A stretch of 61,925 nucleotides of DNA, filler included, from Coriobacteriales bacterium (GCA_031263105.1; 6 parts of 6 records of this genome joined end to end with filler, not necessarily neighbours in it); one strand, 5' to 3'; shown: positions 1 to 61,925, counted from the whole stretch's first letter. Translations and numbers: made by a program. The notes: generated by a model not told the origin, from the letters alone.

Positions 1-372
1 CACTGTCATCCCGGTCCCCACTGTCGCCCCGACCCCCCACTGTCGCCCCGACCCCCCACTGCCACCCCGACCCCCCACTGTCATCCCGAGCCTGCCGAGG
101 GATCCTTGGGTCCGAGCGCCCGGAAATCGCACCGCGTTTTCAGCGAGGACGGGCCGACAGACCCACGGGACGCGAAGCAGCCGAGCGCGGGCCGAGGCGC
201 TTTCTGGCCGCAGTCGACCGCTTGCGCGGTCGAGGATCCCTCGGCAGGCTCGGGATGACAGTGGGGGGTCGGGGTGGCAGTGGGGGGTCGGGGCGACAGT
301 GGGGGGTCGGGGCGACAGTGGGGACCGGGATGACAGTGGGGGCCGGGATGACGGTGAGGGTGTGACGAGTAC
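1..372. mobile_element. Nested palindromic repeat element (REP/MITE-like), copy 1, core type A; left outer end truncated by window start
   Basis: 1..106 is the exact reverse complement of 233..338, including tandem CACTGTC(A/G)... subunits and the core arm CACTGTCATCCCGAGCCTGCCGAGGGATCC. A degenerate outer end GGGTGTGACGAGTAC finishes at ~372. Confidence 0.8.
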
Positions 373-468
373 CATGCAGTGGTTATATTTGGTACTTTAC
401 AAACTCCTTTAGCCTATAGTATGATGCTAGTATTAAATAATATTCCTCTACTCGAAAGGACTGAGAAC

Positions 469-4238: not shown

Positions 4239-4293
4239 GTTACTGTTCACGCCCTCACTGTCATTCCGAGCTTGCCGAGGAATCTTTGGGTCG
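4239..4293. mobile_element. Nested palindromic element, left end, truncated by contig break
   Basis: GTTACTGTTCACGCCCT-CACTGTCATTCCGAGCTTGCCGAGGAATCTTTGGGTCG; the end matches the 55883 copy in reverse. Confidence 0.8.
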
Positions 4294-4393: not shown

Positions 4394-4440
4394 TGCTCAA
4401 GGCCTCTTGCAGGCGCTCCGCTCAGAATGACAGTGGGGTT
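4394..4440. repeat. Fragment of a related REP-like repeat (CCCCACTGTCATTCTGAGCGGAGCG on minus strand)
   Basis: Shares CCCCACTGTCATT with the main family but continues differently; sits at a contig start. Confidence 0.5.
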
Positions 4441-7504: not shown

Positions 7505-7734
7505 GTTACAGACTCACGCCCCCGCTGCCATCACTGCCCCGCTGCCATCACTGCCCCGCTGCCGCCCCCCGCCGCCGCTGCCGCTGCCGCCCCGGCCACT
7601 GTCAACCCGGCCCCCACTGTCATCCCGAGCCCCCACTGTCATCCCGAGCCTGCCGAGGGATCCTCGACTGCGAAGCAGGCGACTGCGGCCGGAAGGCGCC
7701 TCGACCTGCGATCGGCCGCTGGCGCGGCCGAAGA
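7505..7734. mobile_element. Nested palindromic element, core type B, truncated by contig end
   Basis: GTTACAGACTCACGCCC outer end, degenerate tandem CCGCTGCC units, then CACTGTCATCCCGAGCCTGCCGAGGGATCC and core. Confidence 0.78.
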
Positions 7735-7834
7735 NNNNNNNNNNNNNNNNNNNNNNNNNNNNNNNNNNNNNNNNNNNNTTAATTAATTAANNNNNNNNNN
7801 NNNNNNNNNNNNNNNNNNNNNNNNNNNNNNNNNN
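7735..7834. other. Artificial contig linker
   Basis: N/TTAATTAATTAA/N, 100 nt. Confidence 0.98.
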
Positions 7835-8274
<440 letters not shown>

Positions 8275-8376
8275 CCCCCCCCGACCCACCGCGCCGCCAT
8301 TGATCATCGTCTCCCTAGGGATTCGGGTGGAGCCGACGAGGCTCGAGGGAGCCGTTCGCTGTTCAGGGGGAGCCCC

Positions 8377-21722: not shown

Positions 21723-24700
21723 CCTTTCTTCTTGTGCGAGGCGTGGGCCCTTCTGGCAAGGAACAGGCCCGCAAGCAGCAGCAGCGCAGTCGCAAACATG
21801 CAGGCGACGATCGCCAGCAGCTCGCCTGTGGACGGCAGCGCCGTCCCCTCAGGTGCAACGTAGCCTTCCAGGGTCGTGATGTCGGTCGGCTCCCCTGGGC
21901 TGGTGGAGACCATGAAGGGCCCTATGACGGCGGTGCTCACCCTGTCCTCGTCCTCGTCGCTGAGCACGACGTTGCGGGCGATGCCCACCGTCGCACGGTC
22001 CCTGATGGTCGAGGGCGGCAGCAGCGCCGTCGAGCAGGTGACCAGATAGGTCGCCGGCCTGAGGGCGGACGAGGAAAGGGCGCCGCCTTGGGGGCCTGTG
22101 CCTCCGTCTCCCCCGTCGTCCTCCGCCCCCGGCCGCCCTTCGCTCCAGTCGCTCGTGGTCGGCTTGGCGCCCTTGTCCTCCTGGAGCGCCTGCCTGACCG
22201 TGTCGCGCGTCGTGAAGCCCGCCTCGACGCTGCCGTACTCGAAGCGCAGGGCCGTGAGGTGCTCGTTCGGCGCGAGCCCGAGGCCACGGACCGACAGGCG
22301 GGTGGTGTGCGTGGTAGGGACACCGCCTTTCCAGAGCTGCCAGCCGACCGAGGGCCACCTCTGCTCCCTTTGGGGGTTGTTCGCGTTGTGGGGATTGGAC
22401 CCCATGGCACTCTCCGTGGAGTAGGTTCGCGAGGTGTCGGTGAGGTTGGTGCGGTACCAGAGGTTGAACAGGCCGTCGGAGTCGCCCCGGGCCACAGGGG
22501 TGAACAGCTCCTGGAGCCGCACGCCGCCCGTGACGACGGACTCGAGCGTGTCTATGACCGTGAACTCGTCGGCCCGCACATTGGAGGTCGAGCGGAAGTC
22601 GAGCGTGTAGTGGTAGGCCTCCGCGCCCACGTTCTCGACACGGAGATAGTCCTCGTCGCTCGTCTGGAGGCCTGCCGAGGTTATGTTGACGGTGTCCTCG
22701 TATACCTCGCAGCCCAGCTGTATCGCCTTGTCCTCGAACACCTGCACCTCGTCGGCCGCGTCCTTGTCGAGCGCGACGAAGCGGTCCGTCCCCCCGCTCT
22801 CCTCGAAGCTCGCGTACAGGGGGTTGGGACGGGTCTCCTTGAGCTGGTAGTAGCCGAAGGGCAGCCCCGTGAAGCGCAGCCTGCCCTCGGCATCGGTCAC
22901 GAGGCGGGCGCGCTCCGTCCATGCAGGGTCGTCGGCAGTGACGGAGGAGACGTCGGTGCCGATGCGGCCGTCCCTCATCTCGACGGGATAGGACAGGAGG
23001 GCAAACTCGGTGTCTCCGACGGGCGCCTGGGTGTCTGCGTCGCGCTTCTCGACGGGCACGTCGGGCCTGTCGTAGTCGGTGAACAACAGGTCAGGCTGCG
23101 TGTTGCCGACCTCGAGCATGAACGTGCAGGCATCGGAAAAGCCCGCCTCCGAGGGCAGCAGGTAGCCCTCGGGCGCCTTCTCCTCGACGAGCCGGTAGTA
23201 GCCGAAGGACAGCCCCGCAAAGCACAGGCTCCCGTCCTCGTCGCTGACGGCGGTGCCGACCTGTGCCCATGCGGGGTCGTCGGCCGCTATGGCCGCAGTG
23301 TCGGTCGCGACGAGGCCCTCCCTCATCTCTATGGGATAGGAGTACAGGGAGAAGCCCGCGCCGGCAAGGGGCGCCTGGGTCTTCGCGTCCCGTTTCTCGA
23401 CGGGCACATCGGGCCTGGGGTGGTCGGTGAACAGCAGGAAGGGCCGCGTGTTGCCCGCATCGACCTTGAGGGTCTGGGCGTCGGGAAAGCCTGCCTCCGA
23501 AGGGAGCAGGTAGCCCTCGGGCGCCTTGGTCTCGACGAGCCTGTAGTAGCCGAAGAGGAGCCCCTCGAACGCCAGGCAGCCCTCCGCATCCGAGACGGCA
23601 GTGCCGACCTGTGCCCATGCGGGGTCGTCCGCCGCTATGGATGCGGGGTCGTCCGCAACCAGGCCCTCGCTCAACGCCACGGGATAGGAGTACAGGGCGA
23701 ACTCGGCGCCGGAAAGGGCCCCGCCGTCCTTTGCGTCATGTTTCTCGACGGGCAGGTCGGGCTTGCGGTAGTCGGTGAAGAGCAGGGCGGGCTTCGTGCT
23801 GCCCATCTCGACCTTGAAGGTCTGGGCGTCGGAAAAGCCTGCCTCCGAGGGCAGCAGGTAGCCCTCGGGCGCCTTGGTCTCGACGAGCTTGTAGTAGCCG
23901 AAGCCCAGCTCCTCGAACACCAGGCAGCCCTCCGCGTCCGACGTGGCGGTGCCGACCCATGCCCATGCGGGGTCGTCTTCTGCTATGGATGCGGTGTCGG
24001 TCGCAATCAGGCCCTCGCTCAACGCCACGGGATAGGAGTACAGGGCGAACTCGGCGCCGGAAAGGGCCCCGCCGCCCTCCGCATCGCGCTTCTCGACAGG
24101 CAGGTCGGGCTTGTCGAAGTCGGTGAAGACCAGCACCAGCTGCGTGTCGTCGGCCTCGAGCTTGAACAGCCTGGCGTCGCTGAAGCCGGTCTCGGAGGGC
24201 AACAGGTAGCCCTTGGGCGCATGGTCCTCGACGAGCCGGTAGTAGCCGAAGGACATGCGGGGAAAGACGGCCTTCCCGTCGGCCCCCGTCGTGACCGTGC
24301 CGACCTTGGACCATCCGGGGTCGCCCGCCAAGACGGCCGAGACGTCGGTGGCGACGCGGCCGTCCTTCATCGTCACCGGATAGCGGTACAGGCTGAACTC
24401 CGCGCCGGGAAGGGCCTCGCCGCTCTCTGCGTCGTGCTTCTCGACGGGCACGTCGGGCTTGCGGTAGTCGGTGAAGAGCAGGAGCGGGTGCATGTTGCCG
24501 GCATCGACCTTGAAGGCCTGCACGTCGGAGAAGCCCGCCTCCGAAGGGAGCATGTAGCCCTCGGGCGCCTTGGTCTCGACGACCTTGTAGTAGCCGAAGC
24601 CCACACGGGGGAAGGACGCCTTGCCCTTCGCGTCCGTGACCGCCGTGGCCACCTTGGCCCACCTGGGGCCGTCCGACGGGACGCCCGAGACGTCGGTGGC

Positions 24701-27700
24701 GACGAAGCCGTCCTTCATCGTCACGGGGTAGGAGTACAGGCTGAGCTCTGCGCCGGGAAGGGAGGCGCCGGAGGCCGCGTCGCGCTTCTCCAGGGCGGGC
24801 TGGACCTTCGGATAGTCGTTGAAGACGAGCTCCACCACCTGTTCGGTCGAGGATGCGCCGACGGCGAAGAGGCGCTCGTTGGCCATGCCGGCCTCGGAGG
24901 GCAGCTGGTAGCCCTCGGGCGCCTTGGCCTCCACCACCTTGTAGGAGCCTGCCGCAAGGGGGCTGTACCCGACGGTGCCGTCCGTCCCTGCCGTCTTGCG
25001 CATGACCTCGGTCCAGACGCCGCTGCCGGGGGCGCTCTCACGGTAGAGGGCGAACACCGCCCCTGCGAGCGGTGCCGCGCTCGTCGCATCGCGCTTGCAG
25101 ACGCGCAGGCTGCGGGGCTGCTCGGAGACCTGGAGGGCGTTTGCGGCATACTGGACGGCCGTGCCGCCTGCGACGACGCTGCGTTTGACGGCACCGTTCT
25201 CGAGGGAGACCCGTATGAGGGAGACGGGGTTCGGCGAGGGCAGCAGGTAGGCCGACGGCGCCTTGGTCTCCTGGACGAGGAAGGTGCCGAGGGGCAGGAC
25301 GGGCCTGGCGCTCCCGTCGAGGTACAGGGCATTGCTTCCCGCGACGAGGTGGGACGCGTCAAGCACCGCAGCGCCGCCGGCCTTGGTCTCGACGACCCAT
25401 CTCCTCGTCGCCGCCCCCGATGCCTCGGCCTCCGCCGCCGTCGAGTACTGCCCGTCGTAGTAGCGGATGGTGAACTGGGCCCCCGCGAGGGACGCCCCTG
25501 TGGCATCGTCCCTGCCCCAGGCCTTGCCGGTCTCCTTGTCGAGCTTCTGCACGGAGATGCCCAGAGAATCGCTCCAAGGGACCTCGAGGGAGTCGACGCG
25601 GGGCACAGGCGTCGCGTCGGCCACCACGACCCGGTAGGCCCTGGTGTCGAGCGCGAACCCCGCAGGCGCGGTCAGCTCCTTCACATAGTAGGTCCTCTGC
25701 GCCAGAAGGCCGCTTCTGGCAAAGCCGCCCGCGTCGGTCGTCATCCTCGCCACGCGCTCCGTGTCGGCCAAGGCGGTGGCCCTCGTCTTGTATATGCCAT
25801 AGACGGCGCCCGCGAGCGTGTAGCCGGCGTTGCCGCTGCTGAGGGCAGGGAGGGAGGAGGCCTTCTGGAGCTCTATCCTGCCCAGAGGCTTGTCGACGGC
25901 ATCCTTGCACACGAAGACGGTGCCGGCCTCCAGTTTCACCGAATGGATCGCGGTGCTCAGAGCGAAGCCCTTGGGCGCGGTCACCTCCTTTAAGTAATAG
26001 ACGGCCGCATCGAGCATCCTCGTCGAGCGCCCCTTGCCGGCCTTGTCGGTGACGATGCTGGCCAGATGCCCGGTGTCCTCGGAGGCTGCCTCCCGCGTGG
26101 GGTACACGCGGTACACCGCGCCCTCAAGCGAGTAGTCGCTGTTGCCCGTGGTGTGCGCAGGCGCACTCGACGACTTCACGAGGTCGATGTAGCCCTTCGG
26201 GCTGTTGTTGAACCGGAAGGAGGCGTCCTTGCCGGCACCTATCGTGACCTCGACGAAGGCGTCCGAGCGGTCCTTCCATGCCCCTGCCGTCGTCATCTTG
26301 TAGGCCGTCGTCATGAACTCGTGGAGGTAGTAGGTCCCTGGCGCGATGCCGGTCAGCTTCGTCGACTTTAACCCGCCGAACTTATCCTCGTCTTCAACAT
26401 AGGTGAGCGTCGGACGTATGTACCAACGCTCGACAGCTCCAGTGTCATCATGCTGCCAGTCGGTGCCGGGCTTGTTGGAGAGTATATCGAAGCGGGCGAT
26501 GACCTTGCTGTCCTTGTGACCTGCCGGACGCGCAGAGGAGGTGGAGAGGAGGAACGCCGCGTTCTCGAGCGAGTAGGTCGCCTTGTCGAGCGTGGCAGGG
26601 TCGACGATGATGGACTTCTCTATTCGGAGCGTCCCCGTGTCGGGGATGAGGCGGTAGACATGGAAGGAGTCGTAGCTCTTGTACCCTGCGCCCCAGTCGT
26701 CGTCCATGTTCGCCAAGGGCTTGTACTGCGGGCCATGGGAGGGCGAGAGGCTCGCGTCGTACAGATGCCTGCCGTCCCCGACGATCAGGGCGTGGATCAT
26801 GTTGGAAGGGTCGCCCTTGAGGTACAGCAGGACCACGTCGCCCGGCTTGGCGGCATCGGCGATCCTCGTCCCTATGCCCGGGCCCTCTCCCGTGTCGGTA
26901 TGGACGATATGGGGGGCAAGCTCGGTGTACAGGTTATTCGTCCATGAGGCGTGCGCGGTGGAGAGGTTGTAGCCTTCGGCCGCCCTGAGCGCCTGGTACA
27001 CGAATATGCCGCAGTCGGCGGGGGTCGCGTTGCCGACGCAGCTGTCGAGGTAGGCCTTGATCTGGGGCCAGGTTCGCGCAGTGGCGGCGACCGCCAGGGG
27101 CGAGATGTTCGCTGCTGCAAGGGGCAGGAGCCCCTGCCCGTCCGCCGCCGCCTTCCTTGCCCCCTTCCCGGGGACGTCCTTCTCGCTTGACGCGTCCTCG
27201 GGCACGAGGGACGGCCCCTCGTCCTTGTCGCCGGTTGTTGCGGCACGGCCCTCGCCTGCTGCCGTGCCCGTGCCCCCTCCCCCTCCCCCTCCCCCGTCGA
27301 CCTCGACGGCCTCGTCGTCCACGCCCGGGACATCCTGCGACGCATCCCCTGCCCGGAGGCCGGCATCCGGGCTCGATGGGCCGTCCGCAGGGAGAGCCTC
27401 CGCATCGGGAACACCCCCGTCCCCCGACCCAAGGCCGCCCTCCTCTTCGTCGGAGACCCCCAGCTCCTCGAAGGCATACGAGCCGTCGGCCGCCGTGTAG
27501 CTGACGGCTATGCGAAAAGACGGCCCGCCACCGAGCAGGAAGACGGCCCTCGCGACGCCTCCGACCTCCTCGAAGGACTCGAGCACGACGGCGACAAGGT
27601 CGCCGTGCCCCTCCCCGAGGTGGGACGCGAGGGCATCGGCAAGGGCCTCCCTGCCGCCAAGGGCGACGAGCTGCTCCCCGTCGATCCCCGCAAGGCCCGG

Positions 27701-27871
27701 CCCTTCTGCCGCCCCTCCGTCCTCATCGGCTGCGGTTCCCACATGCCCGGATGCCGCGTCGGCGTCGTCGGCAAAGGCGGACGACGTCCCCGCTGGCAGC
27801 AGGGAGAACGCCACAAGCAGCGCACAGAGCGTCCTGAGCGTTCTTTGGGTATACGTCTTGGCTCCATCCAT
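21719..27871 (-). CDS. Giant sortase-anchored SpaA/Cna-B repeat (pilin-like) surface protein with NlpC/P60-like N-terminal domain
   Basis: ATG at 27871 after GAGGAG; signal peptide; many K.D....L.GA.F.L...G.Y..VETKAP.GY domains; LPSTG + TM + basic tail. Confidence 0.88.
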   Translation of the reverse strand: MDGAKTYTQRTLRTLCALLVAFSLLPAGTSSAFADDADAASGHVGTAADEDGGAAEGPGLAGIDGEQLVALGGREALADALASHLGEGHGDLVAVVLESFEEVGGVARAVFLLGGGPSFRIAVSYTAADGSYAFEELGVSDEEEGGLGSGDGGVPDAEALPADGPSSPDAGLRAGDASQDVPGVDDEAVEVDGGGGGGGGTGTAAGEGRAATTGDKDEGPSLVPEDASSEKDVPGKGARKAAADGQGLLPLAAANISPLAVAATARTWPQIKAYLDSCVGNATPADCGIFVYQALRAAEGYNLSTAHASWTNNLYTELAPHIVHTDTGEGPGIGTRIADAAKPGDVVLLYLKGDPSNMIHALIVGDGRHLYDASLSPSHGPQYKPLANMDDDWGAGYKSYDSFHVYRLIPDTGTLRIEKSIIVDPATLDKATYSLENAAFLLSTSSARPAGHKDSKVIARFDILSNKPGTDWQHDDTGAVERWYIRPTLTYVEDEDKFGGLKSTKLTGIAPGTYYLHEFMTTAYKMTTAGAWKDRSDAFVEVTIGAGKDASFRFNNSPKGYIDLVKSSSAPAHTTGNSDYSLEGAVYRVYPTREAASEDTGHLASIVTDKAGKGRSTRMLDAAVYYLKEVTAPKGFALSTAIHSVKLEAGTVFVCKDAVDKPLGRIELQKASSLPALSSGNAGYTLAGAVYGIYKTRATALADTERVARMTTDAGGFARSGLLAQRTYYVKELTAPAGFALDTRAYRVVVADATPVPRVDSLEVPWSDSLGISVQKLDKETGKAWGRDDATGASLAGAQFTIRYYDGQYSTAAEAEASGAATRRWVVETKAGGAAVLDASHLVAGSNALYLDGSARPVLPLGTFLVQETKAPSAYLLPSPNPVSLIRVSLENGAVKRSVVAGGTAVQYAANALQVSEQPRSLRVCKRDATSAAPLAGAVFALYRESAPGSGVWTEVMRKTAGTDGTVGYSPLAAGSYKVVEAKAPEGYQLPSEAGMANERLFAVGASSTEQVVELVFNDYPKVQPALEKRDAASGASLPGAELSLYSYPVTMKDGFVATDVSGVPSDGPRWAKVATAVTDAKGKASFPRVGFGYYKVVETKAPEGYMLPSEAGFSDVQAFKVDAGNMHPLLLFTDYRKPDVPVEKHDAESGEALPGAEFSLYRYPVTMKDGRVATDVSAVLAGDPGWSKVGTVTTGADGKAVFPRMSFGYYRLVEDHAPKGYLLPSETGFSDARLFKLEADDTQLVLVFTDFDKPDLPVEKRDAEGGGALSGAEFALYSYPVALSEGLIATDTASIAEDDPAWAWVGTATSDAEGCLVFEELGFGYYKLVETKAPEGYLLPSEAGFSDAQTFKVEMGSTKPALLFTDYRKPDLPVEKHDAKDGGALSGAEFALYSYPVALSEGLVADDPASIAADDPAWAQVGTAVSDAEGCLAFEGLLFGYYRLVETKAPEGYLLPSEAGFPDAQTLKVDAGNTRPFLLFTDHPRPDVPVEKRDAKTQAPLAGAGFSLYSYPIEMREGLVATDTAAIAADDPAWAQVGTAVSDEDGSLCFAGLSFGYYRLVEEKAPEGYLLPSEAGFSDACTFMLEVGNTQPDLLFTDYDRPDVPVEKRDADTQAPVGDTEFALLSYPVEMRDGRIGTDVSSVTADDPAWTERARLVTDAEGRLRFTGLPFGYYQLKETRPNPLYASFEESGGTDRFVALDKDAADEVQVFEDKAIQLGCEVYEDTVNITSAGLQTSDEDYLRVENVGAEAYHYTLDFRSTSNVRADEFTVIDTLESVVTGGVRLQELFTPVARGDSDGLFNLWYRTNLTDTSRTYSTESAMGSNPHNANNPQREQRWPSVGWQLWKGGVPTTHTTRLSVRGLGLAPNEHLTALRFEYGSVEAGFTTRDTVRQALQEDKGAKPTTSDWSEGRPGAEDDGGDGGTGPQGGALSSSALRPATYLVTCSTALLPPSTIRDRATVGIARNVVLSDEDEDRVSTAVIGPFMVSTSPGEPTDITTLEGYVAPEGTALPSTGELLAIVACMFATALLLLAGLFLARRAHASHKKKG
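22710..24800 (-). repeat. Six tandem 348-bp (116-aa) SpaA-like domain repeats
   Basis: The TTCTC anchor (EK codons of the VEK/LEK motif) recurs at 23046, 23394, 23742, 24090, 24438 and 24786, an exact 348-bp period; boundaries approximate. Confidence 0.9.
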
Positions 27872-27979
27872 GGTCCACTCCTCGTTCCGGTAGTCTCTGT
27901 GATGTGCCCGATGCACGGCATCGATTCAACGTGATACCCCCCTGTCCCTGGACTCCCCGGCAGGACAGGGCCTGATTCC

Positions 27980-33070: not shown

Positions 33071-33170
33071 NNNNNNNNNNNNNNNNNNNNNNNNNNNNNN
33101 NNNNNNNNNNNNNNTTAATTAATTAANNNNNNNNNNNNNNNNNNNNNNNNNNNNNNNNNNNNNNNNNNNN
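33071..33170. other. Artificial contig linker
   Basis: N/TTAATTAATTAA/N, 100 nt. Confidence 0.98.
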
Positions 33171-33213
<43 letters not shown>

Positions 33214-37757: not shown

Positions 37758-40700
37758 TCAGACCTGGGCGACCCCCTCCCTGCGCACTCGTCTGAGGGTC
37801 ACCGTCCTCGTCAGCAGGATGGTCGTGAGGACAAGCGCCACCATGAGGGCCGCGATGCCGAGCATGACGCGCGGCGTCAACACGATGCCGCCTGCGCCTT
37901 CCTGCGTCCCATCGGGCAAAAGGCCGCTCAGGGGCGTGGGGTCGTCCTCGATGGCCGTCGGGGCCGCAGTGCCCTGCGCGGTCGCAGCGGCTCCCGGCGC
38001 AGCGCCGCGCCCGACCTGGGCGCTGCCGTCGGCGCTGCCGGCGGCAGCCGGGCCGGAACCGCCGCTGCCCGCCTGTGCGCCGCTGCCGCCCTGCTGCCCG
38101 GCGCCATCGCCGCTGCCGCCACCCGGCTGCCCGGTGCCGCCGTCGCCTGGCTGCCCGCCGCCGCCCTCTCCTGGCTGCGCGGTCCCGCCCGGCTGCGCGG
38201 TGCCCGGCCGGTCCGTGCCGTCCGCCGTCGTGCCGTCGCCCGGTCGCGCGGTTCCGTCCGCCGCCGTGCCGCCGCTGCCCGGCTTCGCGCCGCCCTGCTC
38301 GCCGCTGCCCGGCTGCCCCGTGCCTCCCTGCTCGCCGCCGCCTGCCTGTGCGCCGCCGCCCGGCTGCCCGGTGCCGCCCGCAGGGTATGCGACGAGCGTC
38401 ACGTCGCTCATGTCGTACAGGGAGGTCGCGCCGGTGAGCGCACGGCGGAGCGCCGCAAGCGCATAGGTGCCCTGCCCGGTTGCCATGACATCGACGCTCC
38501 CGCCTGCCACATGCCTGAAGCCCCCGCTCCCTGCGTCGTAATAGGACATGAGCACGTCGTAGACCGTATGCCCCCCTTTGACGAAGCGCGCGTCGTTGAG
38601 CGGGATGCCGAGCGCACACAGGGCGACCACCACCTGGGCTGCGCTCTCGCAGTTGGGGGCGCCCATGCTCGAGAAGCCGCCGTCGGCGCGCTGGAGCGAG
38701 GAGAGCGCACCCAGCGCACGGCCGAGCGCCGCGTCAAGGACGGCGTTGCCCCTGCCCGCGTAGGGCGCCAGGGCCTGGAGGGCCATGGCCGTCATGTCGG
38801 GGTCGGCGGTGCTTGCGGACATGCCCCATCCGCCACCCGAGAGCTCGCGCGAGAGGAGGTAGGCGATGAGCCTCCCCCGGACGTCCTGGCCGTCCGTCGC
38901 CGTCCCGCCCGCAGGCGTCGCCAGGCCGTCGGCCTGATAGCCGCCGCTGTCGAGGGCAAGGAGCGCGAAGATGGGGCCGTTGACGCCCTGGCGGATGACC
39001 ATGGCGTAATCGGTCAGCGGAGCCGTGAGGTCGAAGCCCGCAAAGCTGCTCGCGTCCACGCCGAGCGCGGTGAGCGCAAGGACGGTACGCGCGTACTCGG
39101 TGTACTTCGTCGCGCTGAGCACGCCGCCTGCGGCCGTCACCTGCGTCGCAAGGTCGTCGAGGTAGGCCTTTTTGGATTGCTCGTCCATCTGTCCGCCCCG
39201 GGCAAGGCCGACGGCCAGCCAGTCCCTGTGGATGCCGACAGGCAGCGCACCGACCGTGCCCTGCGCGTGCCCGGCAGCTGCCGCATAGGCGGCCTCGACC
39301 TCTGCGACCGTGGGCGCAGGGACGGCGGGGGCCGGCGGGGCCGGCTTCCGCTCAAGGCCGTTGATGGCATCGACGAGCGCGGCGGCGGCCCCGTCGATCG
39401 CAGGCTGCCCGGCGGCTCCGTCGCCCAAGACGGCCTTGGCCGCGCCAAGCGCCTCCTGGAAGGCCCGCCAGCTCTCGGCGGTGTAGTCGGCCTCGTCAAG
39501 CGTGTCGGCGGCTGCGCAGGCCCGCCCCAGCGCGTCCTTGTCGGGTGCGGGGGCCACCTCAAGGTCCGCGAGGCAGACGGTCGGCAGGACGCAGTAGGTG
39601 CCCGAGTTCGCCCCGGCGGTCATGTTGATCTCAAGGCCGTTGTCGTAGTCGGCGGTGCGGTGCGCACCTGCGCCTGAGCCCAGATGCGAGTCCGCTATCG
39701 AACCGCCGGACCGTAACGGCGCGCCCGCCAGATGCGCCTCGGTCAGGGTTATCTCGTCGTCGTACTCGGCCGTCTTCGCGTAGCCCTGCGGGTTGTAGAT
39801 GCCGCTCATCTTCGGCACGGGGTAGGCGGGGATGCGCCCGCCGTACAGCACCCTGACCGTGTCTCCCGCCTGAAGCTCCCGGTCCGTGACGTCGGTCACG
39901 ACGCGGACGCTGCCGCCCCTGATCACCTGATAGATGACGGCGCCGTCCCTTACGGCCTTGACGATGTTGTTGCCGGGCCAGATCGTCAGCTTGCCGTCCG
40001 TGACGGTGTGCAGGCTGCCTGCGACGTCGGGGTTGTATGCCGTGACGTCCGCCTGGCCGCTGCCGGAGAGCCGCACGTCGATCTCTGCATTCGCCCCCGT
40101 GAAGAACCAGGTGTCGAACTCCGCGTCCCACGTGCCGTATGCCGCCCCTGGCCGCTGCACCTGGACGGAGGCCGCAGAGCTGCTCCCGCCGACCGTGACG
40201 ACGACGATGCCCTTGCGCTCCGGGTTGACCGCGCCGAAGCGTCCGCCCGACGGGCTGTACGTGGACCCGAAGACGTCGATCGCGTCATAGCTCACCTCGA
40301 TGACGGCCGTTCCTGCCTTCAGGGCCCTGACGTCCGTCCAGTTGCTGTTGATGGCGTCGTGCGGCGTCAGGTCAAGGACGTCCGAGCCTTCGAGCAGCCT
40401 GAAGTGGAAGTCCGGCTCGATCATCTTGTTCATCCAGTCGCTGTTGATGATCTCCCACATGCGGAAGCAGCGCAGCTTGAAGGTCCCGCCGACGCCCATC
40501 TGCAGATGGTTGCCGCCGCCGGGGATGTTCATGAGCAGGGAGTTCCCGTCGCGGTCCGGCTGCATGGTCGTGACGGTGTCGCCCGGGTCCTCGTAGCCGT
40601 CGAAGGTGAGGACCGTGCCCAGCTGCCCCAGGCCCCAGCCCGCCTTGGTGACCTTGCCCGGCAGGGTCGCACGCCAGATGGGGCTGCTGCCCCTGAAGGA

Positions 40701-43229
40701 GTACGTCATGGTGCCGTCGCCGTTGTCGCGTCCGTTCGTCAGCACGGCGCCCCCCGTGTTCACGTAGTACGTGGCCTGGGAGTAGGTGGTGACCTTCGCG
40801 GCCGAAGGCACGGTCAGGGAGTAGATCGGCCCCATCTCGAGCGTGAGCGAGCCCGAGCCGCCGGCGCTCTTGCTCGCCGTCGTCGCGTAGAAGTACGCGC
40901 TCGTCTGTGCGGTCGGCGCGATGCTCATGTTGTAGGAGGTCGCGGCGACGAGGGGCACCGCCCAGGCCCTGCGCGCCGTCGCGGCTGCCGTCGTGTTGTG
41001 GAGGCCGCCGAGCCTTACGCCTTGGTTCTTCTTGTCCTGTACCGCGACCGTGTAGTCCTCCCCCGCGACAAGCGGGTCGTCGCCCAAGGTCTGGTTGGAG
41101 TAGACCGAGCAGACCACGAGGGAGAGGGAATCGGTCATCTTCTCGGCATCCGCCGCGCTGGACGGGACGGTGAGGGATGCCCCTCCTATGTCCGTCGCGA
41201 CGCGCTCGCCGGAGCCGTCGGCCGCGTAGAGGGCGGCGGTGCCACGCACGGAGTAGGTGCCCACGGGCAGCCTGAGCGTATAGGTGGAGCGGCTGCCCTC
41301 GTCCGCCCCCTTTGCGGCATCGACCGCAAGGCCCGCGACGTCGTATCCGTCGCCGTCGAAGCCCTGCGTCCGATGGAAGGACAGGTCGGCGGCCACGTTC
41401 GGCACGGTCACCTCGACCGTGTAGACCGGCTTGGCGACAAGGGCGTCGAGCGCGTCCGCCAAGGCCTTGAATGCCTCCTCGAGCGCGGCCTCCCCGGCGG
41501 CCTCCCCTGCAAGCAGCCCCTTCGCCGCCGCAAGCGCCGCCTCAAGGGCCTCCCAGCCCCCGGAGTAGTCGTAAGGATCGAGCGCCTCGGCCCGCGCGAC
41601 CGCAGCGGCGAGGTCGTCGGCCGCCCCGACCCTCAACACGAGCGCGTCGAGCGCCGCACGCAGGGCCGCCTGGGCCGCGTCGAGCTCCTCCAGGGTCGCC
41701 TCCGCCCGCGCATCCGTCGTGCGCGCAGCATCGAGCGCCGCCACAAGCGCCGCCCACGAGGCGTAGGTGTGGTCTGCGGCGGCCTTGCCCTCGGCCTCGG
41801 TGACGACGGCCCTGAGCGCGCCCCGGTCCACCTTGCGCGTGACCGTTATCTCAAGAGGGCTGGGCGCGTTCACGGGGTCGGGGTGCTTGGAGCAGCTCTG
41901 GTTGCCGCCGCTTGCCGGAAGCGACGGTATGTCCCAAAGGTAGTCGGTATAGACCATGGTGGGCGGCGTCCTGCCCGTCACCTTGGTCCACGCATACGCA
42001 GGCTCCGTCAGCCTGTACGTGCCCGGGGCCGCACCTGTCGGCACAACGAAGGTGAGCGTCCGGTTGATATAAGGTGGCTCATTCGGTATGGAGACGCTCA
42101 CCGTCGCCAGGCCGGGGATGTTCGTCTTGTAGCTCAGGCTGCCTGCGGCGCCGTTCCCTGCAATGACCGTGTTGCTGCTGTTCTTCGCCGCCTGCAGGCC
42201 TGCACCGAGCGTGACGGTCACCTCATCCCCCGGATAGACGACCTCCGGCGAGACCGTGACGACGGATGCCGCCTTCAGGGCGGCGACCGCCGCGCCCAGC
42301 GCCGTCGCTGCCGCATCGACGGCGGCCTGCGCTGCCTTCTCGTCAGCCGCAACGGCCCGTGCCTGCGCAAGCGCGGCCCCAAGGGCGGCCCAGCTGCCAG
42401 CGGTGTAGTCGGCCTCGGCAAGCCCCTCGGCTGCGGCGATGGCGGCAACGAGCACGGCCTTGTCGGCGGGCGGGGCGGTGAGCGCCGCCAGCGCCGCAGC
42501 CACCTCGTCCGCCGACGCCAACGGGTCGATGACGACGTCGAGCGCCCCTTGGCGCGCACCCGCGACCGCACCTTCGGCGAAGAGCGCCCGGATCAGCTCG
42601 GTCTTGTCGACATGCGTGTAATACGGCGGCTCGGCCTCCTCCCATTCGGATGCAAGGCCGAGGTCGGCGCCGTAGCCCCAGACCGTGAACTGGAAGCGGA
42701 GCACGTCCCCCTCCCCCAGCGCCTGCTGTCCGATGCCGAGAGCCATCCGATGGTTCACGCTGTACGTCCACCCGCCCATGGGGCTGTAGTCGAACTCCCC
42801 CAGATAGCCGTCGTCGTTGCCATGTTCCTTGGCAGCTGCGGTCGTGGGCCCGCCGTTGGCCGTGACATACGCGGGGACAACGACCGTGGCAGGCCCCGTG
42901 TCGAAGCCCTCGACCGCCGAGAGGTAGCCGTCTGCGTTGCCGCCCTGGAAGCGATGGCCGGTCTGCTCCAGCAGCTCCTCCATCGCCTCGCCTGCCGTCG
43001 AGCCCTCCGGCACCTCGAGCGCCGTCGGCTCGATATAGAAGCCCTGCCCGAGGTTGTAGCCCTCGAAGTCGAGGTAGACGGTGACCGCGCCGTCGCCGTT
43101 CGCGTTCGGCGCAGGGCCTTCCGCGAGCGCCGCGCCCGGCACGAGCCCGAGCGAGAGCATGACGGCCAGCAGGAGCGCAAGCGCCCTGCTCCCGAGTCCC
43201 GTTTTCTTCCTCTGCGTTTCGCCGCGCAT
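37758..43229 (-). CDS. Large surface protein: DUF4430-like N-domain, FIVAR/GA-like helical repeats, alpha/alpha-barrel (prenyltransferase-like) domain, C-terminal TM
   Basis: Signal peptide; GEFDYSPMGGWTYSVN; repeated DYTA.SW.AL..AL..A; QGVNGPIFALLALDS, DPDMTAMALQALAPY, NCESAAQVVVALCALG. Confidence 0.85.
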   Translation of the reverse strand: MRGETQRKKTGLGSRALALLLAVMLSLGLVPGAALAEGPAPNANGDGAVTVYLDFEGYNLGQGFYIEPTALEVPEGSTAGEAMEELLEQTGHRFQGGNADGYLSAVEGFDTGPATVVVPAYVTANGGPTTAAAKEHGNDDGYLGEFDYSPMGGWTYSVNHRMALGIGQQALGEGDVLRFQFTVWGYGADLGLASEWEEAEPPYYTHVDKTELIRALFAEGAVAGARQGALDVVIDPLASADEVAAALAALTAPPADKAVLVAAIAAAEGLAEADYTAGSWAALGAALAQARAVAADEKAAQAAVDAAATALGAAVAALKAASVVTVSPEVVYPGDEVTVTLGAGLQAAKNSSNTVIAGNGAAGSLSYKTNIPGLATVSVSIPNEPPYINRTLTFVVPTGAAPGTYRLTEPAYAWTKVTGRTPPTMVYTDYLWDIPSLPASGGNQSCSKHPDPVNAPSPLEITVTRKVDRGALRAVVTEAEGKAAADHTYASWAALVAALDAARTTDARAEATLEELDAAQAALRAALDALVLRVGAADDLAAAVARAEALDPYDYSGGWEALEAALAAAKGLLAGEAAGEAALEEAFKALADALDALVAKPVYTVEVTVPNVAADLSFHRTQGFDGDGYDVAGLAVDAAKGADEGSRSTYTLRLPVGTYSVRGTAALYAADGSGERVATDIGGASLTVPSSAADAEKMTDSLSLVVCSVYSNQTLGDDPLVAGEDYTVAVQDKKNQGVRLGGLHNTTAAATARRAWAVPLVAATSYNMSIAPTAQTSAYFYATTASKSAGGSGSLTLEMGPIYSLTVPSAAKVTTYSQATYYVNTGGAVLTNGRDNGDGTMTYSFRGSSPIWRATLPGKVTKAGWGLGQLGTVLTFDGYEDPGDTVTTMQPDRDGNSLLMNIPGGGNHLQMGVGGTFKLRCFRMWEIINSDWMNKMIEPDFHFRLLEGSDVLDLTPHDAINSNWTDVRALKAGTAVIEVSYDAIDVFGSTYSPSGGRFGAVNPERKGIVVVTVGGSSSAASVQVQRPGAAYGTWDAEFDTWFFTGANAEIDVRLSGSGQADVTAYNPDVAGSLHTVTDGKLTIWPGNNIVKAVRDGAVIYQVIRGGSVRVVTDVTDRELQAGDTVRVLYGGRIPAYPVPKMSGIYNPQGYAKTAEYDDEITLTEAHLAGAPLRSGGSIADSHLGSGAGAHRTADYDNGLEINMTAGANSGTYCVLPTVCLADLEVAPAPDKDALGRACAAADTLDEADYTAESWRAFQEALGAAKAVLGDGAAGQPAIDGAAAALVDAINGLERKPAPPAPAVPAPTVAEVEAAYAAAAGHAQGTVGALPVGIHRDWLAVGLARGGQMDEQSKKAYLDDLATQVTAAGGVLSATKYTEYARTVLALTALGVDASSFAGFDLTAPLTDYAMVIRQGVNGPIFALLALDSGGYQADGLATPAGGTATDGQDVRGRLIAYLLSRELSGGGWGMSASTADPDMTAMALQALAPYAGRGNAVLDAALGRALGALSSLQRADGGFSSMGAPNCESAAQVVVALCALGIPLNDARFVKGGHTVYDVLMSYYDAGSGGFRHVAGGSVDVMATGQGTYALAALRRALTGATSLYDMSDVTLVAYPAGGTGQPGGGAQAGGGEQGGTGQPGSGEQGGAKPGSGGTAADGTARPGDGTTADGTDRPGTAQPGGTAQPGEGGGGQPGDGGTGQPGGGSGDGAGQQGGSGAQAGSGGSGPAAAGSADGSAQVGRGAAPGAAATAQGTAAPTAIEDDPTPLSGLLPDGTQEGAGGIVLTPRVMLGIAALMVALVLTTILLTRTVTLRRVRREGVAQV

Positions 43230-43366: not shown

Positions 43367-43404
43367 ATAAAAAACGAAGGTGCCCCCCATCGACCCGGGG
43401 GCAA
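43367..43404 (-). terminator. Intrinsic terminator, expression platform of the riboswitch
   Basis: Minus strand TGCCCCC-GGGTCGATG-GGGGGCA followed by CCTTCGTTTTTT. Confidence 0.65.
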
Positions 43405-43412
43405 CTCCTGCA

Positions 43413-43590
43413 CCATCATTGGTAAGTCTCCTGACTTCTGCTTCGTCCTCCCGGGCGCCTTCCCAGCAGACACTCCGTGTCCCGCCAGTGGCATGCTGCC
43501 CGTTCGTCAGCAGTTACAGTTGTGGTCCGCAGTCCCGGACTCGCACCGGGTTCCTCGTTATTGCGTCGCCGCAACCAATGAATCGACGAT
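43413..43590 (-). ncRNA. Cobalamin (B12) riboswitch
   Basis: Minus strand GAGGAACCCGGTGCGAGTCCGGGACTG..CAACTGTAA..GCCACTGG..GGGAAGGC..AGTCAGGAGACTTACC (B12-box), upstream of an ECF/DUF4430 operon. Confidence 0.9.
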
Positions 43591-43636
43591 ATTCGATTGA
43601 CCTTCCCAGACACCGAAGAGGCAATCGCCCCTCAGC

Positions 43637-46499: not shown

Positions 46500-46708
46500 C
46501 CGCCCCACCGTCCACGCCCCACTGTCCACGCCCCACCGTCATCCCGAGCCTGCCGAGGGATCCTTGGGTCCGAGCGCCCGGAAAACGCCCCGCGTTTTCA
46601 GCGAGGACGGGCCGACAGGCCCACGGAACGCGAAGCAGCCGACCGTGGGCCGAGGCGCTTTCTGGCCGCAGTCGACCGCTCGTGCGGTCGAAGATCCCTC
46701 GGCAGGCT
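46500..46708. mobile_element. Nested palindromic element, core type A, truncated at contig end
   Basis: Core nearly identical to 107..232; ends in GATCCCTCGGCAGGCT. Confidence 0.8.
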
Positions 46709-46808
46709 NNNNNNNNNNNNNNNNNNNNNNNNNNNNNNNNNNNNNNNNNNNNTTAATTAATTAANNNNNNNNNNNNNNNNNNNNNNNNNNNNNNNNNNNN
46801 NNNNNNNN
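46709..46808. other. Artificial contig linker
   Basis: N/TTAATTAATTAA/N, 100 nt. Confidence 0.98.
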
Positions 46809-51735: not shown

Positions 51736-51932
51736 CGGACACCTACGCCGTCTCTTTCCAATGATGTGCCCGCATGCCTTTCTCTCATGGAGATCGCGCT
51801 CGCATTAGGGGTCAGCGCGGCGCAGCTTCGCTGCTTGTCGGAGCGACGCTCCGTTCGCTTTCGCTCACTGCGCTAGGGCGGCGTGCCGCCGCCCTGAACC
51901 AGCCCGGGGGGGGGGGGGGGGGGGGGGGGGGG

Positions 51933-52032
51933 NNNNNNNNNNNNNNNNNNNNNNNNNNNNNNNNNNNNNNNNNNNNTTAATTAATTAANNNNNNNNNNNN
52001 NNNNNNNNNNNNNNNNNNNNNNNNNNNNNNNN
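51933..52032. other. Artificial contig linker
   Basis: N/TTAATTAATTAA/N, 100 nt. Confidence 0.98.
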
Positions 52033-52126
52033 GGGCGGGGCGGGGGGGGGGGGGGGGGGGGCGGCGGGGGGGGGGGGGGGGGCGGGGGGCGGGGGGGGGG
52101 GGGGGGGGGGGCGTCCCCCTGCCCCC

Positions 52127-55746: not shown

Positions 55747-55882
55747 GCTTCTCTCCTTTTCTTCTTCCTGGATTTATTGTCCCAATTCCAGGATAGTCCC
55801 GTACAACAGGAGAAAGCCTATACCTCCTTGAGAATGCTGTCAAACAACAGTCCGCCCGCTGACGCCCCGACAACGCCCCGAC

Positions 55883-56113
55883 GTTACTGAGGTCACACCC
55901 CCGCTGTCTACTGGCCACACCTCCACGGACAGCTCACTGTCATTCCGAGCCCCACTGTCATTCCGAGCCTGCCGAGGAATCTTCGACCGCGCCCGCGGTC
56001 GACCACAGGTCGAAGGGGCCCCCGACCCAAAGATTCCTCGGCAGGCTCGGAATGACAGTGGGGCTCGGAATGACAGTGGGGCTCGGAATGACAGTGGGGG
56101 TGTGACCAGTAAC
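55883..56113. mobile_element. Nested palindromic element, complete copy, core type C
   Basis: GTTACTGAGGTCACACCC...GGGTGTGACCAGTAAC; tandem CACTGTCATTCCGAGCCC units; GCCCCGACAACGCCC on both flanks (55864-55878, 56114-56128). Confidence 0.85.
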
Positions 56114-56127
56114 GCCCCGACAACGCC

Positions 56128-57450: not shown

Positions 57451-57553
57451 CAGGCGACCAAACGCCCACGCAAGAGGACATGGTACCACAACTCAAGGAA
57501 TCATGGGGAGAAAAGCGTCACACATGCATGCACGCGCACATCACAGGCGATGC

Positions 57554-57718
57554 GTTACTGTTCACGCCTCCACTGTCATCCCGAGCCTGCCGAGGGATCC
57601 TCGACCGCGCCAGCGGTCGACCGCAGGTCGAAGGGCCCTGCGACCTGCCGTTGGACACTGCGTGTCCAAGGATTCCTCGGCGGGGCTCGGAATGACAGTG
57701 GAGGGTGTGAACTGTAAC
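57554..57718. mobile_element. Nested palindromic element, complete minimal copy (165 bp), core type C
   Basis: GTTACTGTTCACGCC...GGGTGTGAACTGTAAC, flanked exactly by ATCACAGGCGATGC at 57540-57553 and 57719-57732; a decayed second left end follows at 57733-57770. Confidence 0.88.
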
Positions 57719-57800
57719 ATCACAGGCGATGCGTTACCGACAATATGTGTTCACACCCCCCACTGTCGCCTCGCTCCCAAGGCACGCCCGGCAACAGCAG

Positions 57801-61711: not shown

Positions 61712-61925
61712 GTTACTGTTCACACCCTCACTGTCATTCCGAGCCCCCCACTGTCATTCCGAGCCCCCCACTGTCATTCCGAGCCCCCCACTGTCATTCC
61801 GAGCCCCCCACTGTCATTCCGAGCCCCGCCGAGGAATCTTTGGACACGCAGTGTCCAACGGCAGGCCAGGGGGCCCTTCGACCTGCGGTCGACCGCTTGC
61901 GCGGTCGAAGATCCCTCGGCAGGCT
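61712..61925. mobile_element. Nested palindromic element, core type C inverted, five tandem 20-bp subunits; truncated by window end
   Basis: GTTACTGTTCACACCCT, then (CACTGTCATTCCGAGCCCCC) x5; the core is approximately the reverse complement of the 57554 core. Confidence 0.85.

What the first reader, a model, noticed from the sequence alone, without database searches (positions are those of the whole stretch)
57540..57770. High-copy, modular nested-palindrome mobile element family (about 9 copies in 62 kb) with no transposase in view
Seen: intergenic copies start at 1, 4239, 7505, 32860, 43637, ~46500, 55883, 57554 and 61712. They share four layers: (i) a ~16-bp outer inverted end GTTACTGTTCACACCC...GGGTGTGAACAGTAAC, (ii) a variable number of 18-20-bp tandem subunits derived from CACTGTCATYCCGAGCCC, (iii) a conserved ~29-bp inner inverted repeat CACTGTCATYCCGAGCCTGCCGAGGRATC, and (iv) a hairpin-rich core. 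The 57554 copy is bounded exactly by a 14-bp direct repeat. Known: REP/REPIN elements (RAYT/HUH-mobilised) have inner palindromes, and MITEs have terminal inverted repeats plus target-site duplications. Inference: this family combines both architectures and is the best candidate here for an undescribed non-autonomous mobile system. I cannot exclude that it is already catalogued.
Basis: partly seen in the sequence, partly recalled or inferred. Interest (0 to 1): 0.85.

Follow-up and report, generated by a model that had tools for sequence, protein, structure and literature searches.

The report
IS66-type miniature transposon swarm
The repeat is a real, very abundant family of small non-coding "hitch-hiker" transposons whose ends and 8-base insertion footprint match IS66-type insertion sequences found in related bacteria, so it is a new example of a known kind of mobile DNA, not a new kind.

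Summary
All nine window copies exist, and six of them are cut by contig joins or window ends. Genome-wide the 16-nt outer end occurs 548 times against 6 for a reversed control.

Its borders are those of a cut-and-paste type transposon. There is a sharp 17-nt terminal inverted repeat, GTTACnGTTCACACCCC. An 8-bp target-site duplication is exact in 54 and one-off in 15 of 125 pairs, against 0 and 0 in an offset control.

No transposase with these ends is in this 86%-complete assembly, which holds no contig under 2.5 kb. Relatives carry the partner:
- a 2302-bp element with perfect 15-nt ends GTTACAGGTCACACC around an IS66-family transposase;
- an IS66-type gene next to an end identical to the family consensus over 20 nt;
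- 46 of 80 metagenome relatives bounded by such ends, 20 of them with exact 8-bp duplications.

It is therefore an IS66-family (ISBst12-like) MITE, not a REP/RAYT system. The 14-bp repeat at 57554 is atypical for the family.

Extras are one-sided tandem subunit arrays, an inner module shared with Clostridia genomes, and IS200-type elements inserted at one fixed site in that module. This scan has already noted IS66-type MITEs on other genomes.

The parts
1..373 (.). Copy cut by the window start. Both arms carry 4-6 mirrored 19-nt subunits. The right outer end is at 358-373 (GGGTGTGACGAGTACC).
   Evidence: (C118 358 -)
4239..4293 (+). Left end of a copy (outer end plus inner module), cut by a contig join.
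4394..4452 (-). Right-arm fragment after the join, holding the inner module at 4419-4435. Its outer end is degenerate.
7505..7734 (+). Left part of a copy with a diverged outer end (GTTACAGACTCACGCCC) and a subunit array, cut by a contig join.
32860..33070 (+). Left end, an array of a CCGCTGCCGCCCCGGCC-type subunit, and the core, cut by a contig join.
43637..43887 (.). Complete 251-bp copy with subunit arrays on both arms. The flanks read CCTCAGCG / CCTCGGCG (7 of 8) if the border is moved by one base.
   Evidence: C122 10467-10717
46500..46708 (+). Left part of a long-core copy with no recognisable outer end, cut by a contig join. It is 94% identical to window 70-250.
   Evidence: (D15)
55883..56113 (.). 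Complete 231-bp copy between rplT and a modA-like gene. It has an exact 8-bp target-site duplication, GCCCCGAC, at 55875-55882 and 56114-56121.
57554..57718 (.). Complete 165-bp basic copy between the ftsQ-like stop and infC: outer ends, one inner module per arm, and a three-hairpin core.
57538..57558 (+). First copy of the 21-nt direct repeat (flank plus the first 5 nt of the element). The second copy is at 57717-57737.
   Evidence: D1
57733..57767 (+). Solo left-end remnant (GTTAC, a 10-nt insert, then TGTTCACACCCCCCACTGTC) that follows the second repeat copy. It forms a junction-spanning duplication.
   Evidence: D2, D5, I4
61712..61925 (+). Left end with five perfect 20-nt subunits and the core, cut by the window end.
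   Evidence: (D12)

Best explanation
The family is a MITE: a non-coding, non-autonomous DNA transposon moved in trans by a DDE transposase of the IS66 family. The transposase is most like the ISBst12-type elements, which lack the tnpA/tnpB accessory genes.

Inferred mechanism: the transposase recognises the 17-nt terminal inverted repeats GTTACnGTTCACACCCC, of which positions 6-9 tolerate variation. It integrates the element through cuts staggered by 8 bp, which leaves an 8-bp target-site duplication.

Shown here: the ends, the footprint, the copy number, the strong bias to non-coding sites, and autonomous elements in relatives and metagenomes that have the same ends and footprint around an IS66-family gene.

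Inferred only: that such a transposase moved these particular copies, and that it is or was present in this organism.

The interior is cargo assembled from hairpin modules. Tandem 18-20-nt subunit arrays most likely grow by local slippage, because they are usually on one arm only.
For: Abundance
- The outer end occurs 548 times with up to 3 mismatches, against 6 for the reversed control.

Borders and footprint
- The border is sharp. Base composition is random up to position -1, and then 17 conserved positions follow.
- Of 125 adjacent end pairs, 54 have an exact and 15 a one-mismatch 8-bp flanking repeat. An offset control gives 0 and 0.
- The duplicated 8-mers share no consensus.

Placement and subfamilies
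- Both flanks look coding in 2-4% of 84 elements, against 51-62% of 3000 random sites.
- The two ends of an element share their variable 4-mer in 44 of 86 elements. Shuffling gives a mean of 12 and a maximum of 23.

The same ends and footprint in other genomes
- G009, family f1: TSD AAGAAAGG.
- G290, family f6: three elements of 120-137 bp with exact TSDs.

Autonomous partner in relatives
- G020 (locus L043, 370-2671) is a 2302-bp element with a perfect 15-nt TIR, GTTACAGGTCACACC, and flanks CAAAACGG/TAAAACGG. It encodes a 575-aa protein with DUF6444, zf-IS66 and DDE_Tnp_IS66 domains; NF033517 scores 183 bits against a cut-off of 180.
- In G392 the end GTTACTGTTCACACCCCCAC is identical over 20 nt to the family consensus. 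It lies about 50 nt from the 3' end of a DDE_Tnp_IS66 gene (E 1.5e-18).
- Of 80 metagenome loci that encode relatives, 46 have such a TIR pair around the gene. Of these, 41 have both flanks; 20 show an exact 8-bp TSD and 1 a one-mismatch TSD.

Published parallel
- ISDge4 of the ISBst12 group has TIRs GTGACTACTCAGCA / GTAACTGCTCAGCA and an 8-bp direct repeat (passages of PMC12898284).
Against: - No IS66-family gene was found in this assembly: PF03050 gave 0 matches, a protein search gave 0, and tblastn with three transposases gave only noise at E of 0.39 or above.
- Laying the contigs of three runs on a close candidate (L049) gave only 35-40-nt scraps.
- The nearest copies are not identical. 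For 34 basic copies the median nearest-neighbour identity is 95.1% and the maximum 97.5%. The burst is therefore not recent, and the family may be an orphan.
- 56 of 125 end pairs have two or more mismatches in the 8-bp repeat.
- The copy named in the finding has a 21-nt repeat instead.
- 89 of 537 module clusters lie inside contigs without a recognisable outer end. Some of these are chance hits in genes and others are real TIR-less copies.
- Similarity between the MITE and the autonomous elements is confined to the terminal 15-20 nt.
Confidence: 0.87

Rival explanations
1. REP/REPIN-like system. The inner palindromic modules are recognised and spread by a Y1 (HUH) tyrosine transposase, either a RAYT or an IS200-type TnpA. 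The outer ends would be incidental.
For: - The genome has four Y1_Tnp matches. Two are RAYT-like, scoring 65 and 57 bits on NF047646, below the cut-off of 80.
- One IS200-type gene lies between a left and a right end of the family on contig C197.
- The 29-nt inner module occurs, without the outer ends, in Clostridia-type genome bins (loci L009-L013).
- 89 of 537 module clusters in this genome lie inside contigs with no recognised outer end.
Against: - REPINs and IS200/IS605 elements leave no target-site duplication. Here 69 of 125 pairs have an 8-bp duplication placed exactly outside the outer ends.
- The RAYT-like genes have no family module within 1.5 kb, apart from one that belongs to a separate MITE.
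- Removing the 662-bp IS200-type element from C197 restores a canonical MITE, so it is a passenger.
Confidence: 0.05
2. A MITE mobilised by a DDE transposase of another family that also makes 8-bp duplications, such as IS6/IS26, IS256, ISL3 or IS1595.
For: - The 8-bp TSD alone does not separate these families.
- From memory, the core ACTGTT of the end resembles IS26-type ends. This comes from no call.
Against: - None of PF13610, PF00872, PF01610 or PF12762 matches this genome.
- Every autonomous element found with these ends encodes an IS66-family protein.
Confidence: 0.04
3. Not mobile. On this view it is a host-maintained structural or regulatory palindrome, for example a terminator or an mRNA-stabilising hairpin, spread by recombination and duplication.
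For: - The element folds very strongly (z = -12.4).
- It is almost exclusively non-coding in placement.
- Junction-spanning tandem duplications show that local duplication does occur.
Against: - Unrelated 8-mers are duplicated at 54 loci.
- The same ends bound transposase genes in other organisms.
- A secondary host use is not excluded, but it would not explain the spread.
Confidence: 0.03

Closest known systems
ISBst12 group of the IS66 family (for example ISBst12 and ISDge4)
   Same: - Ends of the form GT(A/T)AC...TCA.
- 8-bp direct repeats.
- A transposase with the DDE_Tnp_IS66 domain and no tnpA/tnpB genes.
- ISDge4: TIRs GTGACTACTCAGCA / GTAACTGCTCAGCA and direct repeat CCTCGATG (passages of PMC12898284).
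   Different: - The window elements are 85-557 bp and non-coding.
- The autonomous relatives found here (2.3-2.45 kb) are at most about 32% identical in protein to annotated IS66-family genes on plasmids.
- They carry an extra divergent 70-76-aa gene.
- I saw passages of the paper only, not its Figure S1.
Bacterial MITEs in general (Correia/NEMIS of Neisseria, RUP, MITEPsy, MITEAba12)
   Same: Small size, non-coding, terminal inverted repeats, target-site duplication, high copy number, intergenic placement, hairpin-forming.
   Different: - The transposase family and TSD length differ. From memory, Correia has a TA duplication.
- This family has arrays of 18-20-nt subterminal subunits (up to 8-9 units) and a mosaic interior.
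BOX elements of Streptococcus pneumoniae (boxA-boxB(n)-boxC)
   Same: A modular build with a variable number of tandem internal units.
   Different: From memory, BOX elements have no defined TIR/TSD borders and no known transposase partner. Here both are defined.
REP/REPIN-RAYT systems and Neisseria dRS3/NIME mosaics
   Same: - Short conserved palindromic modules in inverted pairs that flank variable cores.
- The module ATTCC-N11-GGAAT resembles the design of dRS3 (recalled).
- Y1 transposase genes are present in the genome.
   Different: The whole element has DDE-type borders and duplications, the RAYT-like genes are not flanked by modules, and the IS200-type copies are passengers.
Foldback (FB) elements of Drosophila (recalled from memory)
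   Same: Long inverted arms built of short tandem subrepeats in variable number.
   Different: - Arrays here are usually on one arm only. Among the 29 elements with an array, 25 have it on one arm.
- The elements are about 10 times smaller.
- No relationship is implied.

Membership tests
MITE (miniature inverted-repeat transposable element) | Short and non-coding | tested here: met
   The 86 distinct TSD-bearing elements measure 85-541 bp, median 183. The largest pair with a TSD is 557 bp.
MITE (miniature inverted-repeat transposable element) | Terminal inverted repeats with a sharp border | tested here: met
   17 conserved positions start abruptly at the border, and the flank composition is random.
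MITE (miniature inverted-repeat transposable element) | Target-site duplication of fixed length | tested here: met
   The 8-bp repeat is exact in 54 and one-off in 15 of 125 pairs. The offset control gives 0 and 0. The copy at 57554 is an exception.
MITE (miniature inverted-repeat transposable element) | Ends shared with an autonomous element | tested here: met
   L043 has a 15-nt perfect TIR, GTTACAGGTCACACC, a variant that also occurs at ends in this genome. The L030 end is identical over 20 nt to the consensus.
MITE (miniature inverted-repeat transposable element) | Partner transposase in the same genome | tested here: inconclusive
   None was found. However, the assembly is 86% complete, has no contig under 2502 bp, and comes from a metagenome.
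IS66 family / ISBst12-type derivative | 8-bp duplication | tested here: met
   Among autonomous relatives, 20 of 41 testable loci are exact.
IS66 family / ISBst12-type derivative | The transposase of the matching autonomous element carries DDE_Tnp_IS66 | tested here: met
   PF03050 gives E 8.5e-20 (L043), 1.5e-18 (L030) and 2.8e-23 (L042). NF033517 scores 183 bits against a cut-off of 180 for L043 and 170 bits for L049.
IS66 family / ISBst12-type derivative | No tnpA/tnpB accessory genes (ISBst12 group) | tested here: inconclusive
   L043 has one long ORF. A conserved divergent 70-76-aa ORF with no Pfam family is also present in the closest relatives.
IS66 family / ISBst12-type derivative | Mobilisation by that transposase | not testable with these tools
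   This needs a transposition assay or strain comparisons.
REP/REPIN (RAYT-mobilised) | RAYT gene flanked by inverted REP modules | tested here: not met
   C191 has no module within 1.5 kb. C165 has only one, and it belongs to a separate MITE.
REP/REPIN (RAYT-mobilised) | Insertion without target-site duplication | tested here: not met
   An 8-bp duplication flanks the whole element.
Rfam RNA families | Match at the gathering score | tested here: not met
   The only gathering-level match is a cobalamin riboswitch elsewhere in the window. In the E-value scan the elements give only far sub-threshold matches to eukaryotic miRNA hairpin models, at most 43 bits against cut-offs of 62-99.

The most novel reading that the evidence does not exclude
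The element may be a two-tier mobile system. The outer tier is an IS66-type MITE shell.

The inner tier is the 29-nt module CACTGTCATYCCGAGCCTGCCGAGGRATC. It recurs letter for letter in Clostridia-type genomes without the outer ends. On this reading it is an independently propagated unit that Y1 (IS200/RAYT-type) enzymes recognise as a landing site or substrate.

In this genome both IS200-type copies, and one 78-nt hairpin insert, sit at exactly the same phosphodiester bond of the module (CACTGTCAT^TCCGAGC). MITE swarms would then serve as safe-haven target arrays and cross-phylum carriers for single-strand transposons and their miniature cargo.
Probability: 0.2. Interest if true: 0.65.

Novelty: new member of a known kind. 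Interest (0 to 1): 0.38.

Why it matters
The family explains why this genome assembles so badly: 45% of contig ends lie in the repeat.

It also gives IS66-type (ISBst12-like) elements a well-documented MITE family with several hundred copies in a 2.9-Mb genome, roughly one per 7-10 kb. That places it among the denser bacterial MITE swarms.

Two further points could be followed up:
- The ends can be separated from the cargo. The same ends carry unrelated interiors in other genera, and the same inner module occurs in another phylum without these ends.
- An IS200-type element uses a fixed site in the module.

Both bear on how hairpin modules travel between mobile elements. As a kind of element it is ordinary, and this scan has already noted IS66-type MITEs on other genomes.

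Tried and rejected
- Own-genome scans for IS256 (PF00872), ISL3 (PF01610), IS1595 (PF12762), IS6 (PF13610), rve (PF00665) and IS66 (PF03050) all gave 0 matches.
- PF01609 gave 3 matches. These are IS5-like elements with different ends (CTAGGGAAGC...).
I used the plain end pattern instead.
- Unpaired ends in relatives were mostly MITE-size elements with one degenerate end, or chance matches inside genes.
- Laying the contigs of runs X1-X3 on L049 at 80% likeness gave only 35-40-nt scraps. There is no support either way for a partner in the source sample.
- The 165-bp copy has no match in the plasmid collection and no look-alike in earlier scan windows.
- A fourth candidate for a same-site insertion, on contig C167, was dropped on inspection.
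- Mirror-symmetric foldback arms as a general rule were rejected. Only 4 of the 29 elements with arrays have them on both arms.
- Empty-site comparison at the ftsQ-infC and rplT-modA loci was not attempted. The genomes held are from other genera, and only 3 of 41 searched, counting this one, match the element at all.
- Literature searches: 'IS66/ISBst12/MITE', 'miniature inverted-repeat' with 'Coriobacteri' (the taxon was my own guess and is named by no tool), and 'IS66, miniature inverted-repeat, 8-bp, derived'. None of the listed papers describes this family. ISfinder could not be searched.

Full report
**What is there**

The stretch 57554-57718 is a 165-bp imperfect palindrome. It begins GTTACTGTTCACGCC and ends GGGTGTGAACTGTAAC. 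Inside each end lies one copy of CACTGTCATYCCGAGC..GAGGRATC. The centre holds three short hairpins. Folded as single-stranded DNA it gives -69.3 kcal/mol, with shuffles averaging -29.6 (z = -12.4).

The outer end (up to 2 mismatches) matches 8 times in the window, with 0 expected. The subunit matches 24 times against 0.03 expected.

The window is not one continuous piece. It is several contigs joined by N44-TTAATTAATTAA-N44 linkers, and six of the nine copies are cut by a join or a window end.

**Genome-wide picture**

The assembly has 2,905,931 bp in 250 contigs, GC 64.5%, and is 86% complete.

| Mismatches allowed | Outer-end hits | Reversed control |
|---|---|---|
| 0 | 66 | 0 |
| 1 | 232 | 0 |
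| 2 | 370 | 0 |
| 3 | 548 | 6 |

(all)

- 223 of 500 contig ends lie within 400 bp of family sequence, against 41 of 500 random windows. The repeat is therefore the main reason the assembly is fragmented.
- Clustering the inner module gives 537 loci. Of these, 379 have an outer end nearby (140 at contig edges), 69 sit at contig edges without one, and 89 are internal without one. Some of the 89 are chance hits in genes and others are real copies with decayed or missing ends.
- My estimate is roughly 270-400 elements.

**Borders**

- In 88 elements the base composition is random up to the last flanking base, and then 17 conserved positions follow: GTTACnGTTCACACCCC.
- Of 129 adjacent plus/minus end pairs (104-692 bp), 53 have an exact 8-bp flanking direct repeat.
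- In a stricter recount of 125 pairs, 54 are exact and 15 have one mismatch. A control that takes the left 8-mer 12 nt further out gives 0 and 0. The remaining 56 pairs have two or more mismatches.
- The duplicated 8-mers share no motif.
- No pair with a duplication is longer than 557 bp, so no autonomous copy is assembled.
- Elements avoid genes. Both flanks show codon periodicity in 2-4% of 84 elements, against 51-62% of 3000 random sites.

**Anatomy**

- Among 86 distinct elements the median length is 183 bp, and 34 are the basic 155-170-bp form.
- 38 elements have one unit per arm. 29 have two or more units on at least one arm (up to 8), and only 4 have arrays on both arms. Arrays therefore mostly grow on one side, which fits local slippage better than arm-to-arm copying. 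The copy at window 1-373 is one of the mirrored exceptions.
- Positions 6-9 of the end vary (TGTT, ACGT, AGTT, CGTT, TGGT and others). They agree between the two ends of an element in 44 of 86 cases, against a shuffled mean of 12 and maximum of 23. This indicates subfamilies, and hybrids also exist.
- Interiors are mosaics. The loop of the inner module varies from 5 to about 40 nt, core hairpins are swapped, and an optional 65-nt module can be amplified. That module was the subject of earlier scan note e1-2968871.
- Nearest-neighbour identity of the 34 basic copies has a median of 95.1% and a maximum of 97.5%, so the expansion is not very recent.

**The copy named in the finding**

Its bounding repeat is 21 nt, 57538-57558 = 57717-57737. 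A solo left-end remnant follows at 57733-57767. This is a duplication spanning the flank-element junction, not an 8-bp footprint.

Similar tandem repeats of flank plus end occur on other contigs (C222, C71, C96). I cannot explain how they arise.

The neighbouring copy at 55883-56113 has the standard exact duplication, GCCCCGAC.

On the minus strand the order is: murC-like, ftsQ-like (POTRA_1), the element, infC, rplT, a second element, a modA-like binding protein, a permease.

**The partner**

In this genome I found no match to IS256, ISL3, IS1595, IS6, rve or IS66 models. The three DDE_Tnp_1 matches are IS5-like elements with unrelated ends.

The exact end pattern GTTACNGTTCACRCC occurs in:
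- 6 of 34 genomes of the same family, counting this one: this genome 147 hits, G009 12 hits, and four genomes with single hits;
- 12 of 400 genomes sampled from the order.

MITE-size elements with the same ends but different interiors, and with exact 8-bp duplications, occur in G009 and G290.

Autonomous elements:
- In G392 the end GTTACTGTTCACACCCCCAC is identical over 20 nt to this family's consensus. It lies about 50 nt from the 3' end of a gene cut by the contig start, whose 305-aa product matches DDE_Tnp_IS66 (E 1.5e-18).
- Searching that protein through 400 genomes of the order found 4 with a match at E of 1e-20 or better.
- One of these, G020 of the window's own family, holds a complete element (L043 370-2671, 2302 bp). 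It has perfect 15-nt ends, GTTACAGGTCACACC / GGTGTGACCTGTAAC, and flanks CAAAACGG / TAAAACGG (7 of 8). Its 575-aa ORF carries DUF6444, zf-IS66 and DDE_Tnp_IS66. NF033517 'IS66 family transposase' scores 183 bits against a cut-off of 180. That end variant also occurs among this genome's ends.
- A metagenome scan with an alignment of three such proteins found 221 relatives, of which the best 80 loci were kept. Of the 80, 46 have a GT(A/T)AC..TCA end pair enclosing the gene and 41 have both flanks. Of those 41, 20 have an exact 8-bp duplication, 1 has one mismatch, and 20 do not match, plausibly because repeats were collapsed during metagenome assembly.
- The closest annotated proteins on plasmids are 'IS66 family transposase' entries at 27-32% identity. 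They come from Bacillus, Deinococcus and Geobacillus, including an ISGst1-family entry.
- Passages of PMC12898284 describe ISDge4 (ISBst12 group) with TIRs GTGACTACTCAGCA / GTAACTGCTCAGCA and an 8-bp direct repeat.

**Why the missing partner is weak evidence**

The smallest contig is 2502 bp, so a collapsed 2.3-kb IS contig would have been dropped. The best-holding run is labelled a termite gut metagenome, and multi-copy or plasmid contigs are easily lost from genome bins (general knowledge). Laying run contigs on L049 gave nothing usable.

The genome has four Y1_Tnp matches.

Two are IS200-type TnpA genes (NF033573, 137 bits). On contig C197 the gene does lie between a left and a right end of the family. 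But the 662-bp IS200-type element (3561-4222) is inserted precisely between CACTGTCAT and TCCGAGC of the inner module. Leaving it out gives a canonical MITE: 151 identical of 212 aligned columns against another copy, with 46 of the remaining columns being a subunit array.

The second copy, on C168, sits at the same bond in the opposite arm's module. A 78-nt hairpin insert starting TGCCAT sits at that bond in the other arm of the same element.

The other two Y1 genes are RAYT-like (65 and 57 bits, cut-off 80) and are not flanked by modules. Y1 enzymes therefore do not explain the family, but the module appears to be a preferred landing site for one of them.

**Wider distribution of the module**

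The exact 29-nt inner module occurs in genome bins titled Oscillospiraceae, Ruminococcus and Borkfalkiaceae, in small palindromes or arrays without the GTTAC ends.

**Databases and literature**

- Rfam: nothing at gathering score except a cobalamin riboswitch. The elements give only weak matches to eukaryotic miRNA hairpin models.
- No match in the plasmid collection.
- Three literature searches found no description of this family. I saw listings, and passages of three papers.
- This scan's own notes list 19 findings of IS66-type MITEs on other genomes, some noting cores shared between MITE families. These are unchecked AI notes, not independent evidence.

**Verdict**

This is a real and very abundant IS66-type (ISBst12-like) MITE family. 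It is a new member of a known kind. The fixed-site IS200-type insertions and the cross-phylum inner module are the parts worth a further look.

Noticed in passing
G000 contigs C197:3561-4222 and C168:about 12640-13290 (not in the window): Two IS200-type elements (TnpA, NF033573 137 bits) are inserted at exactly the same bond of the MITE inner module, CACTGTCAT^TCCGAGC. Removing the C197 copy restores a canonical MITE. A 78-nt hairpin insert starting TGCCAT sits at the same site in the other arm of the C168 element.
   Followed up: partly
L043:427-657(-), L049:18-230(-), L044-L048: The 2.3-2.45-kb IS66-type elements carry a small divergent ORF of 70-76 aa upstream of the transposase. It is 62% identical between two elements whose transposases are about 40% identical, and it has no Pfam family. 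It is present in 6 of 80 metagenome loci and absent from this genome.
   Followed up: partly
window 4294-4393, 7735-7834, 33071-33170, 46709-46808, 51933-52032: The window is a chain of contigs joined by N44-TTAATTAATTAA-N44 linkers. Long poly-C and poly-G runs sit near the joins (8230-8290, 33171-33213, 51905-51932, 52033-52110) and look like sequencing or assembly artefacts.
   Followed up: no
window 43404-43594 (-): A cobalamin riboswitch (94 bits) lies directly upstream of an 1823-aa FIVAR-domain ORF (37758-43229, minus strand) and 40 bp from the MITE at 43637.
   Followed up: no
window 22841-25300, inside the 2065-aa ORF at 21719-27916 (-): Six or seven tandem 348-bp (116-codon) coding repeats at 68-100% identity.
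   Followed up: no
window 57538-57767; G000 contigs C222:8545-8650, C71:1023-1148, C96:4420-4545, C250:4974-5190: Tandem duplications that span the flank-element junction (flank plus outer end repeated 2-5 times) recur in the family. In some copies the outer end itself is repeated in tandem (C31: four copies at 16-nt spacing). The mechanism is unexplained.
   Followed up: partly
L009-L013 (genome bins titled Oscillospiraceae, Ruminococcus, Borkfalkiaceae): The exact 29-nt inner module occurs in another phylum, in roughly 95-bp palindromes or arrays that lack the GTTAC outer ends and show no obvious duplication.
   Followed up: partly
G000 contigs C191:2857-3609 and C165:2223-3083: Two RAYT-like Y1 genes of 250 and 286 aa score 65 and 57 bits on NF047646, below the cut-off of 80. 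Neither is flanked by family modules.
   Followed up: partly
G000 contigs C1:1518-2801, C29:about 15900, C96:2111-3223: The genome also holds other mobile-element genes: an IS630-like ORF (judged by eye) and two IS110-type matches (PF02371, E 1e-26 and 6e-19).
   Followed up: no
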